From Carcharhinus longimanus (lineage: Eukaryota): DNA of 64,000 nucleotides. Positions 29,425 to 50,307 of the stretch are shown one piece after another. The stretch is from positions 31,642,764-31,706,763 of the forward strand of contig JASCQW010000112.1 of assembly GCA_030264375.1 (NCBI GenBank), in the 5' to 3' direction. The notes below the pieces were generated by a model, which saw only the letters and a list, made by a program, of their open reading frames with translations, did no database searches and was not told the DNA's origin. The translations under genes were made by a program, and so were the position numbers. Every line of letters begins with the position of its first letter. Position 1 is the first letter of the stretch.

Positions 29425-29840
29425 TAGATACCAATGTTCGCTCTGTACGTGGTCTAAANNNNNNNNNNNNNNNNNNNNNNNNNNNNNNNNNNNNNNNNNN
29501 NNNNNNNNNNNNNNNNNNNNNNNNNNNNNNNNNNNNNNNNNNNNNNNNNNNNNNNNNNNNNNNNNNNNNNNNNNNNNNNNNNNNNNNNNNNNNNNNNNNN
29601 NNNNNNNNNNNNNNNNNNNNNNNNNNNNNNNNNNNNNNNNNNNNNNNNNNNNNNNNNNNNNNNNNNNNNNNNNNNNNNNNNNNNNNNNNNNNNNNNNNNN
29701 GAACTCTCCATTCACCTGACGAAGGGGCAAACCCCAAAAGCTTGCGAGTTTACTATCAAATAAATCGGTTGGACATAAACCTGGTGTTCTCAGATTTCTA
29801 ACTGTGTTTACCCCAGTCCAACACTGGCATCTCCACATCA
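29425..29840 (+). mobile_element. Penelope-derived element end (gap inside) with hammerhead-like core
   Basis: ttcacctgacgaaggggcaaaccccaaaagctt followed by the terminal ...ccccagtccaacactggcatctccacatca shared with other copies. Confidence 0.7.
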
Positions 29841-32936: not shown

Positions 32937-34050
32937 TATGTGGCGTTGGACTGGGGTAAACACAGTAAGAAGTCTCACAACACCAGGTTAAAGTCCAACC
33001 AGTTTATTTGATAGTAANNNNNNNNNNNNNNNNNNNNNNNNNNNNNNNNNNNNNNNNNNNNNNNNNNNNNNNNNNNNNNNNNNNNNNNNNNNNNNNNNNN
33101 NNNNNNNNNNNNNNNNNNNNNNNNNNNNNNNNNNNNNNNNNNNNNNNNNNNNNNNNNNNNNNNNNNNNNNNNNNNNNNNNNNNNNNNNNNNNNNNNNNNN
33201 NNNNNNNNNNNNNNNNNNNNNNNNNNNNNNNNNNNNNNNNNNNNNNNNNNNNNNNNNNNNNNNNNNNNNNNNNNNNNNNNNNNNNNNNNNNNNNNNNNNN
33301 NNNNNNNNNNNNNNNNNNNNNNNNNNNNNNNNNNNNNNNNNNNNNNNNNNNNNNNNNNNNNNNNNNNNNNNNNNNNNNNNNNNNNNNNNNNNNNNNNNNN
33401 NNNNNNNNNNNNNNNNNNNNNNNNNNNNNNNNNNNNNNNNNNNNNNNNNNNNNNNNNNNNNNNNNNNNNNNNNNNNNNNNNNNNNNNNNNNNNNNNNNNN
33501 NNNNNNNNNNNNNNNNNNNNNNNNNNNNNNNNNNNNNNNNNNNNNNNNNNNNNNNNNNNNNNNNNNNNNNNNNNNNNNNNNNNNNNNNNNNNNNNNNNNN
33601 NNNNNNNNNNNNNNNNNNNNNNNNNNNNNNNNNNNNNNNNNNNNNNNNNNNNNNNNNNNNNNNNNNNNNNNNNNNNNNNNNNNNNNNNNNNNNNNNNNNN
33701 NNNNNNNNNNNNNNNNNNNNNNNNNNNNNNNNNNNNNNNNNNNNNNNNNNNNNNNNNNNNNNNNNNNNNNNNNNNNNNNNNNNNNNNNNNNNNNNNNNNN
33801 NNNNNNNNNNNNNNNNNNNNNNNNNGAACGGCGGGCAAGTATGTCCCAAAGCATGGTACACTGGGGAGACCATGCAGACACTATGACAAAGGATGAATGA
33901 ACATCGCTCGACAATCACCAGGTAAGACTGTTCCCTTCCTGTTGAGACTAGAACTCTCCACTCACCAGACGAAGGGCAAACCCCAAAAGCGTGTGGTTTT
34001 ACTATCAAATAAACTTGTTGGACTTTAACCTGGTGTTGTGAGACTTCTTA
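32937..34050 (+). mobile_element. Penelope-derived insertion with inverted terminal arms and 13-bp TSD (mostly gap)
   Basis: TSD ctgatggcctgca at 32924-32936 and 34051-34063; inverted arms; GIY-YIG remnant CPKAWYTGETMQTL at 33826-33886. Confidence 0.85.
33018..33825. other. Largest assembly gap; other N runs at ~5975-6074, 11956-12055, 12334-12343, 25910-26009, 29459-29700, 43175-43274, 55352-55451, 58051-58230
   Basis: Runs of N; several are exactly 100 nt, a common placeholder for gaps of unknown size. Confidence 0.98.
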
Positions 34051-36427
34051 CTGATGGCCTGCACCAAGGGTCTTAAAAGAAGCGGCTGCCTGGTTGGTTG
34101 ATACATTTGTTGCAATCTTCCAAAATTCCCTAGATTCTGGAAAGGTCCCAACAGATTACAAAACTACAAATCCAATACACCTCTGTTTAAGAAAGGAGAG
34201 AAATAAAGCAGGAAATTCTAGGTTGGTTAGCCTAATGCTTGTCACTGGGAAAATGCTAAAATCCATCATTAAGGAGGTAGTATTGGGACAGATAGGGAAT
34301 CAATGCTATCAGCCAATATCGACATGGTTTTGTGAAAGGGAAATTTATTCAGCAAATTTGGCTACAATACAGTTGCTCCCTTCATCCAAGTCTTTAATTT
34401 TCATATAATATTGCTAGTTGAAGCCCAGTACAGATTCTTGTAGCACTCAACTAGTTTCAGTTTGCCATCTTGTAAATGACCCATTCATCCCAGTTCTCTG
34501 TTTCTTGTTAGTTTGGCAAATCCTGTATTTATGCTGATATGATCTTGGGAGTGATCTAAGTCCTTACCTTGTGCAGAAACATTTTATTTGACATCTAATT
34601 GAACACTTTCTTGAAATCCAAATACATATCTACTGGTTCCCCTTTATCTTCTCTGCTTGTTATATCCTGCATACACATAGCAAGTAATTTGGAAGACAAA
34701 CAAAATGTTGGTCTTTAATGCGAAGGGGAACAGAGTATAAAAGTAGGAAAGTCTTGCAACATCTGTATAGGACAGAAGTGAGAACACATCTGGAGTAGTG
34801 TGCAGATTTGATCAACTTCGTCAAGGAGAAACACTTGGATAAGCAGTCCAGAGATGGTTCACTAGGAATTAGGATTTTTTGTATTATGGGGAAAGGTTAA
34901 GCAGATTTGGCCAATACTCTCACCAGTTTAGAAGAATGAGAGGTGATCTTATTGAAACTTACAAAGTTCTGAGGGTACTTGGCAGATTAGATGCTGAGAG
35001 AATGTTTTTTTCCCTGTGGCAGAATCTAGAACTAGGGTGCTCAGTTTAAAAAAGGATCTCCCATTTTATCTCTCAAAGAATCATTAGAGTTTGGAATTCT
35101 TTTTCCCAGTGAGCCATGGAGACTGGGTCATTGAATACGTTCAAGGCCAAGTTAGATTTTTGATTGACAATAGAGTCAAGGGTTACGGGGGAAGGCAGGA
35201 GAGTGAAGTTAAGGTCATAATTAGATTGGGCATAACCTTTTGAATGGTAAAGCAGGTTCATGGGGTCAAATTGCCCACTCCTGCTTCTATTTCATCTGTT
35301 ATGTAGATGATCTCATGGAGATGCATAAAATTCAGAAAGGGCGTGACAGACCTGATTTGGAGGTGTGTTAATTCAGCTCAACAATGTAGAACTAGAGGTC
35401 ATAGATTCAGCGCAGACATGCTATTGAATAGAATTTCTTCTCGAAGGGCAGTGAATCTTTGGAATTCTCTACTCATTGCACTGTAAAGCTCACTGAGTAT
35501 AACTAAGGTTGGGAATGCTAGCTTTTTGGGCTCTCAGGGAATCAAGTCATGTGCATAGGGTGGAAATGTGGATTTGATGCAAAGGTTGACCAAGATTTTT
35601 GTGAACTGTGGTGCAGACAGGGACTGCAAAATTTAGGCCTATTCCTTACTTTACATATTAAATATTAGGATGCTGGCATTATAAAGCAAATGAGTTGAGA
35701 GGCATGGGTACACCCAAGTAACGTTTTGCCTTTTGAGGAGAGTCGAGCATAAATTGTGAGATTGCCGTTAGATGTTATGACACACCGGTAGATGTAACTG
35801 TATGTTTTGACTATGCAAATTTTCTAGATAGGTGCAACAACTAATGTAACAATCATAAGGTACATAAAGGCAAACAGAAAGGGGCATTAGCTTCAAGAAA
35901 AATCGGAATAAATTACCATCATTTGAGTACTAAAATAAATAACTAGACATAATATTAGTGCAATACATTAGTCTTCTAATATGCTGCATCATGCATATCC
36001 AGGTATTGCCAATAATTCACCTCAGTTCGTTACTTATTTCAAAAAGGGTAGAAGGGTCATACGGAGGAAATAAAATGATTGCATTCACACCTCATTATCC
36101 AAAAGCAGAATTCAGAAACCAGAGAATAGGCTGCTTTTTGATAAGTTCATTTAAGAAAAACTTTTGAGATACAGAATATTCTACACTAACTGGGAATGAG
36201 GGGAACCAGAGACAATATGAATTGACAAAAGCATAGCCAAAAATTCCTATTTCACATTTTTGCTCTGGAACACAATTAATTCCCAATTGCTTAATCCATA
36301 ATTTATTTCAATCTGATCTGTGGGTCAAGCTTTTATTCAATATTTTCCACCTTTCTTAATTAAGTTAACCTTTCTCACAACAGGAGCACTGTTTTTCTTT
36401 TAAACAGCAACTTACTCCACTGTTTAC

Positions 36428-36629
36428 CAGATTTTGCCGTAGTCATAACATAGCCATCACTGCTAGATACAATCAGTGACTGAAGTTTTAAGACCTCTCC
36501 TGGTGATGACAGGTTACCTTCTGGTCTAGTTGCAGTAGAAACTTGGATGTAGGGTCCCACAGCAGCAACACGACCGGAGGTATTAGAGTGCGTCTGTGGT
36601 ACTGGTGTGCCATTAACTCGATTCAGCTG
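36428..36629 (-). CDS. PPP1R13B: ASPP1 exon (QLNRVNGTPVPQTHSNTSGRVAAVGPYIQV...TAKS)
   Basis: cttttccctttagCAG NAGNAG acceptor, gtaaac donor, 202 (or 199) nt, phase 0->1; RVAAVGPYIQ is conserved in ASPP1/2. Confidence 0.95.
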
Positions 36630-38673: not shown

Positions 38674-38870
38674 CTGTAGCTCTTGATATAGCTTTTTTAA
38701 TTCAACTGCAGCAGGTCCTGGAACTTGTCCATTGTAAGCCTGCAATCCATTTGTTTTTCCTTTTCTCAAGTCATCAAGTTGCTGCGTCAGTTGATCAACT
38801 TTTAACACAGCCGATTGCAACTCCCGCTGTTTCTCATGAAACATACTGTTGATGTGCTCAATTTCAGCTG
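38674..38870 (-). CDS. PPP1R13B: ASPP1 coiled-coil exon ([28 protein letters not shown]...[13 protein letters not shown])
   Basis: (CT)n tract then cacagCAG acceptor, gtgaag donor, 197 nt, phase 1->0. Confidence 0.95.
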
Positions 38871-39119
38871 CTGTGAGAAGAGAGAGAGAGAGAAAAGCGA
38901 TAAACTCGAAGCCTGCAAACTTGCTAGCTCTTAAAGTGCACTATATTTATTTCAATTTCATTTAAGGTAATATTTGCAGAGCATGAACATCAAACTTTCA
39001 GAAAATAGAAAGAAATTATCTGATATTAACATTAATGGGGTGTAAAATAGCTGAAAACCACAATGTGCAATACCAGTGGCTTGTGTAATGCCTCAGATGC
39101 AGTACAATACATTCTGAGG

Positions 39120-40440
39120 ATAGAATATTAGAGATCATAAAGGTTTACAGCATGGAAACAGGCACTTCAGCCCAATTTGTCCATGCTGCCTTTTTTTAAA
39201 GCCCCTAAGCTAATCCCAATTGCCCACATTTGGCCCATATCCCTCTATACCCATTGTACCCAGGTAACTATCTAAATGCTTTTGAAAAGATAAAATTGTA
39301 CCCGCCTCTACTACTACCTCTGGCAACTTGTTTCAGACACTCACCACCCTCTGAAAAATTGCCCCTCTGGGGACTTTTGTATCTCTCCCCTCTCACCTTA
39401 AACCTATGCCCTCTAGTTTTAGACTCCCCTATCTTTGGGAAAACATATTGACTCTCTTACTGGTCTATGCTCCTCATTCTTTGATAGACCTCTAAGGTCA
39501 CCCCTCAGCCTCCTCCTACGCTCTAGAGAAAAAAGTCCCAGTCCATCCAGTCTTTCCTTAAAACTCAATCCATCAAGTCCCAGTAGCATCCTAGTAAATC
39601 TTTTCTGCACACTTTCTAGTTTAATAATATCCTTTCTACAGATCGATAGACTTGTGTGGTATAAGATTTAGGATTAATGTAGAGTCACAGAGATCTACAG
39701 CACAGCAAAATCCCCTTGGCCCATTGAATCTATATCAGTCAAAGACAAACCATCCAACTATTCTAATCCTATTTTCCAGCACTTGGTCCATAGCCTTGTG
39801 TGTCCTGGCATCCCAAGAGCACATCTAAATATTTCTTAATTATTATGAGGGTCTCTGCCTCCACCACCCTTTCAGACAGTGAATTCCAGACTTCCACCAT
39901 CCCCTGGTTGAAAAAGCTTTTCCTCACATCCCCTCTCAACCTCCTGCCCCTTACCTTAAGTCTATGGCCCCCGGTCATTGATCCCTCCACTATGGAGAGG
40001 AGTTTCTTCCTGTCTACTCTATCTGTGCCCTTCTTAATCTCATACATCTCAATCATGTCCCCTCTCAGTCTCCTCTGCTCCAAGGAAAATAATCCCAGTC
40101 CATCCAATCTATTTTCATAACTAAAACGCTCCAGCCCGGGCAACATCCTGGTGAATCTCCTCTGCACCCTTTCCAGTGCTGTCACATCCCTCCTTTAATG
40201 TGGATTCTGGAACTACACACAATACTCTTGCTGTGGCCTAACCAACATTTTACATAGTTCCAGCATAACCTCCCAGCTCTTAAACGCTCTGCCTCAGCCA
40301 ATAAAGGCAAGTATACAATATGCTTTCTTAACCACTTTATCCACTGTCCTGCTACTTTAAGAGAGCAGTGTACATGCACACCAAAGTCCATCAGACATTG
40401 GTGCTTCACAGGCTCCTGCCATTCATTATGTCTTTCCTGT
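39120..40440 (-). mobile_element. Two tandem CR1 (HER1-like) 3' fragments
   Basis: ORFs 39419..39610 and 39769..40185 (LERVQRRFTRMLPGL...LGLFSLEQRRLRGD...VWNSL). Confidence 0.88.
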
Positions 40441-40761
40441 GTCTGCCATAGTGGGCCCTCCTAGTTCCAATCTTCCACCATCACTTGCATTTATATTACA
40501 TTTACATGACTGTTCCCTCCCCCAGTGGGGTTTGGCCCCGTATGTTTGGCAGATATTTTGCCCAGACTTGGACAGAAGCTGGAAGGAGTCCTCCTCACAG
40601 GGAGGCAGATGCTTGAGAAAGACAAGATTCTTGCCAAGGGACCCAATATTACTCTGTTTGAAAATTAGGAACAGCCTACTGTTTGTCCAATAAGAATCTA
40701 AACAAACTTTGGTGAATCACAGGAAAAACGGAAACAAAACAGCAGCCGTGTAGAAGCTTAC

Positions 40762-40898
40762 CTGCCTCGGTTGCTATGACTGTGATATTGTGCCAAGGCA
40801 TTTCTTCCCGGTCTAGTGGTTTTAATGTTACAATTGATCCATTGGCAGAATTTATGTTGAAGTATCTGTCCAAATCAGTATGTCGATCGATAGAGTAA
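40762..40898 (-). CDS. Orphan type II classical cadherin exon, EC4 region ([45 protein letters not shown])
   Basis: Acceptor tttgaactttccag, donor G|gtaagc, 137 nt, phase 2->1, no stops. LDRE Ca-binding motif plus DRHTDLDR and WHNITV are typical of CDH6/9/10/8/11-type cadherins. The paralog cannot be assigned. Confidence 0.88.
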
Positions 40899-41240
40899 CT
40901 GGAAAGTTCAAATCAGAAAAACAATTTAGATAACACCCATTTCCAAAAGATGGAGATTTTGACCCTTTGTTTGTTGATTCCTATTGCAAACTCAAACACT
41001 TTTAATGCAGGGCTCTGACCCAGCAATCAGTTTCCTGACTCAATATCCTCCCACCTATTCCAACCAAGAGTTAGATGCAGTATCATTAATGTTTTTTTTG
41101 TGCCTATTTAGGGTAATTTTCCAACTATTGCTAATACTTTTCCTTGTGTCGGCAGCATTCTCTGACATTAAGCCTCTGTAAGTGCTGCTCTGTAACCGTC
41201 TAGTGTTCAGTTGTTCTATGTTTGATTATGTTTATTTACC

Positions 41241-41580
41241 TGGGGAGGTGATGGCCTCGTGGTATTATTGCTAGATCGTTAATCCAGAAACTCAGCTAAT
41301 GTTCTGGGGACCCAGGTTCGAATCTCGCCACAGAAGATGGTTGGAATTTGAATTCAATAAAAAGTATCTGGAATTAAGAGCCTACTAATGATCATCAACC
41401 ATTGTCTATTGTCAGAAAAGCCCATCTGGTTCCTTTAGAGAAGGAAATCTGCCGTCCTTACCTGGTCTACATGTGACTCCAGAGCCACAGCAATGTAGTT
41501 GACTCTCAACTGCCCTGAGGCAACTAGGGATGGGCAACAAATGCTGGCCCAGCCAGCGATGTCCATGTCCCACAAATGAA
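41241..41580 (+). mobile_element. SacSINE1/Deu-like tRNA-derived SINE, near full length
   Basis: tggcctcgtgg A box, ggttcgaatc B box, core ggaaatctgccgtccttacctggtctacatgtgactccagagccacagcaatg, LINE-like tail. Confidence 0.8.
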
Positions 41581-42302
41581 TCTGTTTACAATTGCTGCTT
41601 ACTGTGCTTGATCAGTTAAGCCTGGGTATGGACTCAGGGAAAAGTTATAGAAACCAAGGGGTGAATTTTCTGGTTCCGCTGGCCACGGGAATCATAGTGG
41701 GCAAGAGGTGGACCATGGAAAGGTCTGCTGTTGGCCTCGGGTCTGACTTCTAAGGTGGGATTTTCCGGGCACGCCCCGAGGTCAGACTGGAGGCATGGAG
41801 TAGATACCACAAAGCACAGTAAATAAAACTCATTACCCATTGAAACTAATGTAATTTTTTTGTAGATCAGAAATATAAAATTTACTACAATGGTCTCTAG
41901 GATTTGTCTGGCAATGATCGGTGAAAATATATCTGTCCATTTTTCCGCTCTCGCTCCCATGAGAATGTTTCTAACGTGGATAAGTGCTTTTGCGGTGATT
42001 CAATCAAGATTGAGGACTTGTCACGTAAGTAATTGTGGAGATGCATTTACGTTTTAACATTTTGTTCTCCAATACAAGGACGCATTTGAAAAGAAGATTG
42101 AAAATGCATTAAAGAGCTCCACTGCTAACTCATAAAAAATCTGAGTCGCACAGATAGTTAAAGTTGGTCTTTTGTTTGCTCATTCTCAGGATGTGAACAT
42201 CACTCACCCCAGCCTGCATTTATTATCCATTTTAACTGCCCTTAAGAAAGTGGGGTGAGTCACCTTCTTGAACTGCTGGAACCCATGTGGTGTAAGTATT
42301 CC

Positions 42303-42455
42303 TGATGTACAGATGCCGGTGTTGGACTGGGGTAAACACAGTAAGAAGTCTCACAACACCAGGTTAGAATCCAACCAGTTTTTTTTAAATAAACCAGTTT
42401 TTTCAAATAAACCTGGTTGGACTCTAACCTGGTGTTGTGAGACTTCTTACTGTGT
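42303..42455. mobile_element. Miniature palindromic Penelope-derived insertion
   Basis: 43-bp inverted arms (42336-42378 / 42413-42455, 1 mismatch); direct repeat gtgtaagtattcc at 42290-42302 and 42452-42464. Confidence 0.85.
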
Positions 42456-42869
42456 AAGTATTCCCACAGTGCTGTTGGGAAGGGGGAATCCAGGATTTTG
42501 ATCCAATGATAGTGAAGGAATGGCGATATAGTTCTAAGTCAGGATGGTGAGTGCCTTTGACGGGAGTTGATAGCGTTCCGTGTATTTGCCACCTTGTCCC
42601 CCGAAATGGCAGAGCTTGAGAGTTTGGAAGATGCAGTTGAAGACCCTTTTGGTGAGTTGCTGCAGGACATCTCCTAAATGGTACGCACTGCTGCCACTGT
42701 ACATTGATGGTGGAGGGAGTGAATGCTTAAGATGGTGGATGGGCCATCAATTATACAGCTGTTTTGTCCTGAATGGTAGTAAGCTTTTGAGTATAGTAGG
42801 AGCTACCAGGTTGCTACAAAAAAGAATCATCTGGTTCACGAGTGCCCTTAAGAGAAAAAAGATCTTTCT

Positions 42870-43174
42870 TTTCATGGGCATCACAGGTAGGCCAGCATTC
42901 ATCCCTAGTTGCCCAAGACAAGTTGAAGAGTCAACCACATTGCTGTGGCTCTGGAGTCACATGTAGACCAGACCGGGTAAGGATGCTAGATTTCCTTCCC
43001 TAAAGAACATCAGTGAACCAGATGGTCTTTTCCGACAATTGACAATGGTCATCAATAGATTCTTAATTCAAATTCCACCATCTGCCGTGGTGGGATTCAA
43101 ACCCGGGTCCCCAGAATATTAGCTGAGCTTCTGGATTAATAGACTAACGATAATATCACTGGGCCACGGCCTCC
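42870..43174 (-). mobile_element. SacSINE1/Deu-like SINE
   Basis: Reverse complement of the 41241-41580 family. Confidence 0.8.
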
Positions 43175-43274
43175 NNNNNNNNNNNNNNNNNNNNNNNNNN
43201 NNNNNNNNNNNNNNNNNNNNNNNNNNNNNNNNNNNNNNNNNNNNNNNNNNNNNNNNNNNNNNNNNNNNNNNNNN

Positions 43275-43351
43275 ACCTGTTGGACTTTAACCTGGTGTTG
43301 TGAGACTTCTTACTGTGTTTACCCCAGTCCAACGCCAGCATCTCCACATCA
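43275..43351 (+). mobile_element. Penelope-derived terminal arm next to gap
   Basis: gttggactttaacctggtgttgtgagacttcttactgtgtttaccccagtccaacgccagcatctccacatc. Confidence 0.75.
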
Positions 43352-50132: not shown

Positions 50133-50307
50133 AAAGATTGCCATTGATAATTTTACTATAGTCCACCTGTCCTCGCATAGCTCGTATCTTCTTCAGCTTT
50201 GCCTCCTGGTTCTCCATACGTTCTTTCAGCTTCTGTAATTTGTCACTTTCTGAAATGGACTGCTGCTGGCGCCTCTCTTGTTGTTTCAAATAACGCAAAC
50301 GTTGCTC
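50133..50307 (-). CDS. PPP1R13B: ASPP1 exon ([58 protein letters not shown])
   Basis: ttccctcaaag acceptor, gtgagt donor, 175 nt, phase 0->1. Confidence 0.96.

What the first reader, a model, noticed from the sequence alone, without database searches (positions are those of the whole stretch)
40440..42170. Lone, undecayed type II cadherin exon inside an ASPP1 intron
Seen: a 137-nt exon at 40762-40898 with strong splice sites and no stops or indels, encoding a cadherin EC4 segment with LDRE. No other cadherin exon was found in the window, and the block is bounded by LINE fragments rather than by N gaps. A same-strand cadherin gene interleaved with ASPP1 is implausible, so this is a captured or duplicated fragment or a repeat-mediated misjoin. 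If included after exon 50133-50307 (phase 1) it reads [15 protein letters not shown] and would be a poison exon triggering NMD.
Basis: partly seen in the sequence, partly recalled or inferred. Interest (0 to 1): 0.78.

Follow-up and report, generated by a model that had tools for sequence, protein, structure and literature searches.

The report
Misplaced cadherin exon: an assembly error
The stray cadherin exon inside a shark ASPP1 gene is an ordinary exon of a cadherin gene on another chromosome that the genome assembly almost certainly put in the wrong place, so it is not new biology.

Summary
The exon (40762-40898, minus strand) is real, intact, and lies between two consecutive ASPP1 exons in this assembly. 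It is not a copy. It is the genome's only EC4 exon of the shark cadherin-6-like gene (44/45 residues identical to two shark orthologues). The rest of that gene is on another scaffold (C132:139.29-139.45 Mb). It covers every residue of the orthologue except 419-464, which is exactly this exon. The C132 intron that should hold the exon has a 6,669-N gap. The first 27 bases after that gap are the last 27 bases of this window's contig (43148-43174, next to an N gap), on the same strand, and that 27-mer occurs at only these two places in 2.68 Gb. The exon's splice phases fit the C132 neighbours and restore a gapless frame; without it the gene frameshifts. Contig depths show no doubling. So a 3-4 kb piece of cadherin-6-like intron was joined into the ASPP1 intron, on the left inside a repeat. 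The left join is not pinned and no long reads were available. Poison-exon and exon-capture readings are not supported. Artefact, about 95%.

The parts
40762..40898 (-). EC4-coding exon (137 nt, phase 2 in, phase 1 out) of the shark cadherin-6-like gene; belongs on G000:C132 between 139,359,456 and 139,310,316
39162..43174 (.). Largest possible extent of the misplaced piece of cadherin-6-like intron (right end fixed at 43174; left end somewhere in 39162-40241; 2.9-4.0 kb)
43148..43174 (+). Last 27 bases of the contig; identical to the first 27 bases after the 6,669-N gap at C132:139,320,927; exact 27-mer found at these two places only
43175..43274 (.). 100-N gap: the right junction of the misplaced piece
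39129..39638 (-). High-copy repeat fragment (LINE 3' end by recalled resemblance); likeliest site of the left misjoin, weak hint at 39373-39443
39680..40430 (-). Second, older high-copy repeat fragment (LINE-like, recalled); its right part is attached to the exon in read contigs; alternative site of the left join
41241..41581 (+). SINE-like repeat (label recalled) inside the piece
42303..42455 (.). Palindromic high-copy repeat inside the piece
42873..43174 (-). SINE-like repeat copy cut at the contig end; at most 84% identical to other scored copies; it continues on C132 after the gap
50133..50307 (-). ASPP1 (PPP1R13B) exon upstream of the intron
38674..38870 (-). ASPP1 (PPP1R13B) next exon, directly consecutive in shark proteins

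Best explanation
Assembly misjoin. A 2.9-4.0 kb piece of the cadherin-6-like gene, holding its EC4 exon and intron flanks, belongs in the 6,669-N gap at G000:C132:139,314,258-139,320,926. The assembly attached it to the ASPP1 intron on C112, on the left through a high-copy repeat and on the right with a 100-N gap. In the animal ASPP1 has a normal intron and the cadherin-6-like gene has all its exons. Shown: single copy, hole in the donor gene, end overlap, phase fit. Inferred: that the join is false rather than a real move, and that it happened inside the repeat at 39129-39638.
For: (1) Exon plus flanks (40440-41260) match only themselves in the genome; 41580-43174 has no second copy among 40 of 16,873 candidates scored, only repeats at 77-94% over short parts. 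(2) The peptide finds itself and 8 paralogous exons at 47-70% among 38 of 38 candidates scored; none lies in the cadherin-6-like gene; nucleotide identity to those 8 is 57-67%. (3) 44/45 identity to cadherin-6-like of Cetorhinus and Mustelus, 39-43/45 to seven other cartilaginous fish proteins. (4) The gene on C132 covers all 793 residues of P0005 except 419-464; its other exons are 79-100% identical and the only aligned stop lies in a short intron. (5) That intron (49.1 kb) has 11 N gaps, 13,410 N. (6) The 27-base end overlap, same strand, exact 27-mer found 2 times in 2.68 Gb; of 3,003 pairs of gap-edge ends among 39 pieces only 2 overlap by 10 or more bases, this one and one across a single gap; chance of the twin falling in that intron is about 2e-5. 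(7) With the exon, the C132 donor (phase 2) and acceptor (phase 1) give a gapless 178-column match to P0005; without it the same sites frameshift into stops. (8) Per-contig depth of the piece is like that of the ASPP1 intron in 4 of 4 runs laid: 9.4 and 9.3 vs 8.6; 6.1 and 6.4 vs 8.7; 20.2 and 16.5 vs 16.9; 2 and 2 vs 2 (a weak measure).
Against: No read or contig was seen that joins 43174 to C132 directly, and none that shows the true ASPP1 intron without the piece. The left side is assembled without a gap and the switch point is not pinned: the shift in copy-specific sites near 39443 (11/315 vs 16/195, p 0.025) uses a break chosen after looking, and no other half of that repeat copy was found (40 candidates scored in each). 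The left edge of the C132 gap does not overlap the piece and is a 242-copy repeat word. Gap-edge 27-mers can recur by themselves: two control edges occur 14 times and once, so the weight lies in where the twin is, not in its existence. The link from the exon to 43174 crosses three repeats and rests on the assembly alone.
Confidence: 0.95

Rival explanations
1. Recent real duplication, collapsed by the assembler: the piece exists both in the cadherin-6-like gene and as a new copy in the ASPP1 intron; the two near-identical copies were assembled once and placed in ASPP1, leaving the gap on C132. The ASPP1 copy could act as a poison exon.
For: A collapse would also give one assembled copy, a hole in the donor and the end overlap. 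The left side is gap-free in the assembly. Inclusion would give an early stop and the splice sites are canonical.
Against: Depth of the piece is 0.7-1.2 times that of the ASPP1 intron contig in 4 of 4 runs, not 2 times; this includes run X1, whose listed contigs over the piece and the ASPP1 exon show no differing letters. The right junction is an N gap, not sequence. Depth per contig is a rough measure, and a copy private to the assembled animal is not excluded.
Confidence: 0.03
2. Real move: the exon was cut out of the cadherin-6-like gene and now lies only in ASPP1, so the cadherin is dead or needs trans-splicing.
For: The assembly taken at face value.
Against: The place it left is an N gap, not joined sequence, and the DNA after the gap starts with the piece's own last 27 bases. 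Loss would frameshift the gene, yet its other exons and this one show no decay.
Confidence: 0.01
3. An old captured or decayed cadherin fragment, or part of a second cadherin gene interleaved with ASPP1.
For: Only the position inside the ASPP1 intron.
Against: 44/45 identity to the orthologue, no other cadherin exon in 64 kb, no donor copy, and an exact hole in the orthologous gene.
Confidence: 0.01

Closest known systems
Shark cadherin-6-like (793 aa; Mustelus asterias P0005, Cetorhinus maximus P0002), a type II classical cadherin of the CDH6/9/10 group
   Same: Exon peptide 44/45 identical, residues 420-464, in EC4; rest of the gene 79-100% identical on C132.
   Different: Last full codon gives Ala where the nine cartilaginous fish proteins compared have Thr; in this assembly the exon sits on another scaffold.
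'Fragmented' false gene loss in short-read assemblies (Kim et al. 2022, PMC9516821; I read five passages and section 9)
   Same: Exons of one gene split over different scaffolds in a gap-rich assembly; the paper reports 26-60% of genes with one or more of eight such errors in earlier assemblies.
   Different: Here the split-off exon is not on its own scaffold but joined into the intron of another gene; the passages read do not describe that case, and no better assembly was at hand to compare.
Poison exons coupled to nonsense-mediated decay (from my own knowledge)
   Same: Inclusion would add a premature stop far upstream of the last junction.
   Different: The exon is a coding exon needed by another gene, and its presence in ASPP1 DNA is not supported.
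Exon capture by retroelement transduction or segmental duplication (from my own knowledge)
   Same: Foreign intact exon with intron flanks among repeats.
   Different: The donor does not keep a copy, depth is not doubled, and one end is an assembly gap.

Membership tests
Type II classical cadherin (cadherin-6-like), gene of origin | Cadherin repeat sequence in the exon | tested here: met
   Pfam PF00028 above cut-off
Type II classical cadherin (cadherin-6-like), gene of origin | Two tryptophans at the start of EC1 (criterion recalled) | tested here: met
   First C132 exon reads RSKR-GWMWNQF
Type II classical cadherin (cadherin-6-like), gene of origin | Five EC repeats, membrane span and cytoplasmic tail in one gene | tested here: met
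   C132 exons cover residues 1-418 and 465-793 of P0005, which carries PF00028 and PF01049
Type II classical cadherin (cadherin-6-like), gene of origin | Exon length and phases shared with paralogues and fitting the neighbours | tested here: met
   Same 137-nt AG..GT frame in 8 of 8 paralogous exons; phase fit on C132
Assembly artefact ('fragmented' gene) | Exon on a different scaffold from the rest of its gene, which lacks it | tested here: met
Assembly artefact ('fragmented' gene) | Gap at the proper place, large enough, with end overlap | tested here: met
   6,669 N for a 2.9-4.0 kb piece; 27-base overlap on the right edge only
Assembly artefact ('fragmented' gene) | No molecule spans the assembled junction | tested here: inconclusive
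   No listed contig bridges 39162-40241 in 4 of 4 runs, but contigs break at every repeat in the stretch and the table is cut
Assembly artefact ('fragmented' gene) | Correct placement in a long-read assembly | not testable with these tools
   No relative's genome or long reads are served for this window
Captured or duplicated exon | Donor gene keeps its copy / second copy exists | tested here: not met
Captured or duplicated exon | Doubled read depth if the copies were collapsed | tested here: not met
   0.7-1.2 times the ASPP1 contig in 4 of 4 runs (rough measure)
Poison exon | Inclusion gives a premature stop upstream of later junctions | tested here: met
   (in silico only)
Poison exon | Exon physically lies in the host intron | tested here: inconclusive
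   Indirect evidence is strongly against; no spanning molecule either way
Poison exon | Junction reads in RNA, rising under NMD block | not testable with these tools
   No RNA run was laid

The most novel reading that the evidence does not exclude
A very recent duplication put an intact cadherin-6-like exon into an ASPP1 intron of this shark; the assembler collapsed the two copies, and the new copy works as a ready-made poison exon that lowers ASPP1, a p53 cofactor.
Probability: 0.03. Interest if true: 0.55.

Novelty: not a real feature. Interest (0 to 1): 0.05.

Why it matters
As an artefact it matters only for curation: this assembly would give a false frameshifted cadherin-6-like gene and a false cryptic exon in ASPP1, and 3-4 kb of the C132 gap can be filled from this window. 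It also gives the scan a quick test for lone intact exons: look for the hole in the orthologous gene and for a contig-end overlap at a gap. If the unlikely duplication were true it would be a caught-in-the-act birth of a poison exon in a p53 regulator.

Tried and rejected
Search for a donor copy by DNA and protein: none. PDB sequence search: only generic cadherin repeats, not informative. Laying contigs of 4 of 24 listed runs: all are short-read contigs that break at each repeat, so the missing bridge over 39162-40241 is no evidence; the joint and loose-end tables were swamped by repeats and cut. No RNA holder listed, which says nothing on expression. Following the left edge of the C132 gap: its last 28 bases occur 242 times, a dead end. 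Pinning the left join: best other copies of the two repeats are 79-89% identical; 25 fetched copies gave only a hint at 39373-39443; searches for the other halves of that repeat copy found nothing above 95%. Tandem repeats: nothing relevant. Earlier scan notes: none, by words or by place. Papers: no paper holds PPP1R13B, cadherin and 'poison exon' together; one listing for shark, type II cadherin, cdh6, genome, not read. The names LINE and SINE for the repeats, the W2/W4 criterion and the EC numbering are recalled, not from a library search.

Full report
Observation. On the minus strand, 40762-40898 is a 137-nt exon with a canonical acceptor and donor and an open frame that scores as a Pfam cadherin repeat above the curated cut-off. 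The gene around it is ASPP1: the upstream exon is 98% identical to shark PPP1R13B proteins, and tblastn places consecutive residues 148-210 and 211-279 of P0121 at 50133-50307 and 38870-38674. All 120 cadherin proteins listed hit the window at this one place.

What the exon is. Its peptide is 44/45 identical to residues 420-464 of cadherin-6-like from Mustelus and Cetorhinus and 39-43/45 to seven other cartilaginous fish proteins. By the linker motifs of P0005 (numbering recalled) this is EC4. In the window's own genome the DNA 40440-41260 matches only itself. The peptide finds itself and 8 paralogous exons at 47-70% among 38 of 38 candidates; these are 57-67% identical in DNA, so none is a donor.

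Where the rest of the gene is. P0005 maps to G000:C132:139,287,102-139,448,827, minus strand (a stricter first look, 57 of 428 candidates scored). I fetched 120 kb of it and the first exon. Every residue of the 793 is covered except 419-464. The exons are 79-100% identical to P0005; the one aligned stop lies in a short intron that tblastn read through. The intron that should hold the missing exon is 49.1 kb with 11 N gaps, 13,410 N in all. The C132 donor at 139,359,456 ends in phase 2 and the acceptor at 139,310,316 starts in phase 1; the window's exon between them gives a gapless 178-column match to P0005, and without it the same sites frameshift into stops.

The physical link. The last 27 bases before the window's gap (43148-43174) are the first 27 bases after the 6,669-N gap in that intron (C132:139,320,927-139,320,953), on the same strand. 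The exact word occurs at these 2 places only in 2.68 Gb. It lies in a SINE-like repeat copy that is at most 84% identical to other scored copies. Among 3,003 pairs of gap-edge ends from 39 pieces, only this pair and one pair across a single gap overlap by 10 bases or more. Controls temper this: two other gap-edge 27-mers of the window occur 14 times and once, so a twin alone proves little. What counts is that the twin is the edge of a gap in the very intron to which the protein evidence points independently; chance of landing in that intron is about 2e-5. Orientation and size fit: the piece is 2.9-4.0 kb and the gap 6,669.

Reads. Of 24 runs listed I laid 4, all short-read contigs. The ASPP1-side contigs end at 38893-39161 and the exon contigs begin at 40242-40314; no listed piece bridges them, but contigs break at every repeat here, so this is not evidence. 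Per-contig depth of the piece is 0.7-1.2 times that of the ASPP1 contig in 4 of 4 runs, which argues, weakly, against a collapsed duplication. Run X1 shows no differing letters in its listed contigs over the exons and may not be independent of the assembly.

The left join. It must lie in 39162-40241, which is two high-copy repeat fragments. In the first, a 71-base stretch (39373-39443) is identical to another genomic copy, and copy-specific sites are rarer left of it than right (11/315 vs 16/195, p 0.025, break chosen afterwards; 17 aligned copies). Searches for the other halves found nothing, and the left edge of the C132 gap is a 242-copy word. So the site is a guess.

How it arose. Shown: one copy, a matching hole, a gap at the hole, an end overlap, phase fit. 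Inferred: the assembler passed from the ASPP1 intron through a repeat into the cadherin intron, ran to 43174, and the scaffold then resumed in ASPP1 across a 100-N gap, leaving a gap on C132. I put this at 0.95; a collapsed recent duplication at 0.03; a real move or an old capture at 0.01 each.

Comparison with what is known. The exon is an ordinary exon of a type II classical cadherin, and the C132 gene meets the features tested. The situation matches the 'fragmented' class of false gene loss in short-read assemblies described in PMC9516821, of which I read five passages and section 9; the listing came. It fails the tests for a captured or duplicated exon. It would work as a poison exon on paper only. 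A search for PPP1R13B with cadherin and 'poison exon' gave 0 papers; the library lacks most subscription journals. Earlier scan notes held nothing.

Verdict. Not a real feature; interest 0.05. The most novel reading left open, a collapsed young duplication acting as a poison exon in ASPP1, has about 3% probability and would deserve about 0.55.

Noticed in passing
G000:C132:139,369,277 / 139,369,378 (L018): The two sides of a 100-N gap overlap by 77 exact bases, a small false duplication; shows that this assembly leaves overlapping ends at gaps.
   Followed up: no
window 23580-23377 and 23032-22919, minus: Two ASPP1 segments that match the Cetorhinus isoform P0134 but not the Mustelus or Carcharodon isoforms tested: likely alternative exons; exon at 36629 also has a short and a long form.
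   Followed up: no
window 40763-40765, minus (last full codon of the exon): Ala where 9 of 9 cartilaginous fish proteins compared have Thr.
   Followed up: no
window 41777: A 22-base insertion relative to the window in 3 of 4 runs laid, which are 1-4% divergent relatives; it repeats neighbouring sequence.
   Followed up: no
G000:C132:138.6-143.6 Mb (L006, L008, L010, L011-L022): Four type II cadherin genes in 5 Mb, of which only one is of the CDH6/9/10 kind by the searches made.
   Followed up: no
G000:C132:139,359,7xx (L017): The cadherin-6-like gene has one very short intron (about 100 bases) between two EC3 exons, in a gene whose other introns are 6-50 kb.
   Followed up: no
window 33951-34053, 42303-42455, 43275-43351, 29701-29840, 32942-33017: The same short palindromic repeat sits at or near four gap edges of the window; it seems to be a main cause of contig breaks.
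   Followed up: partly
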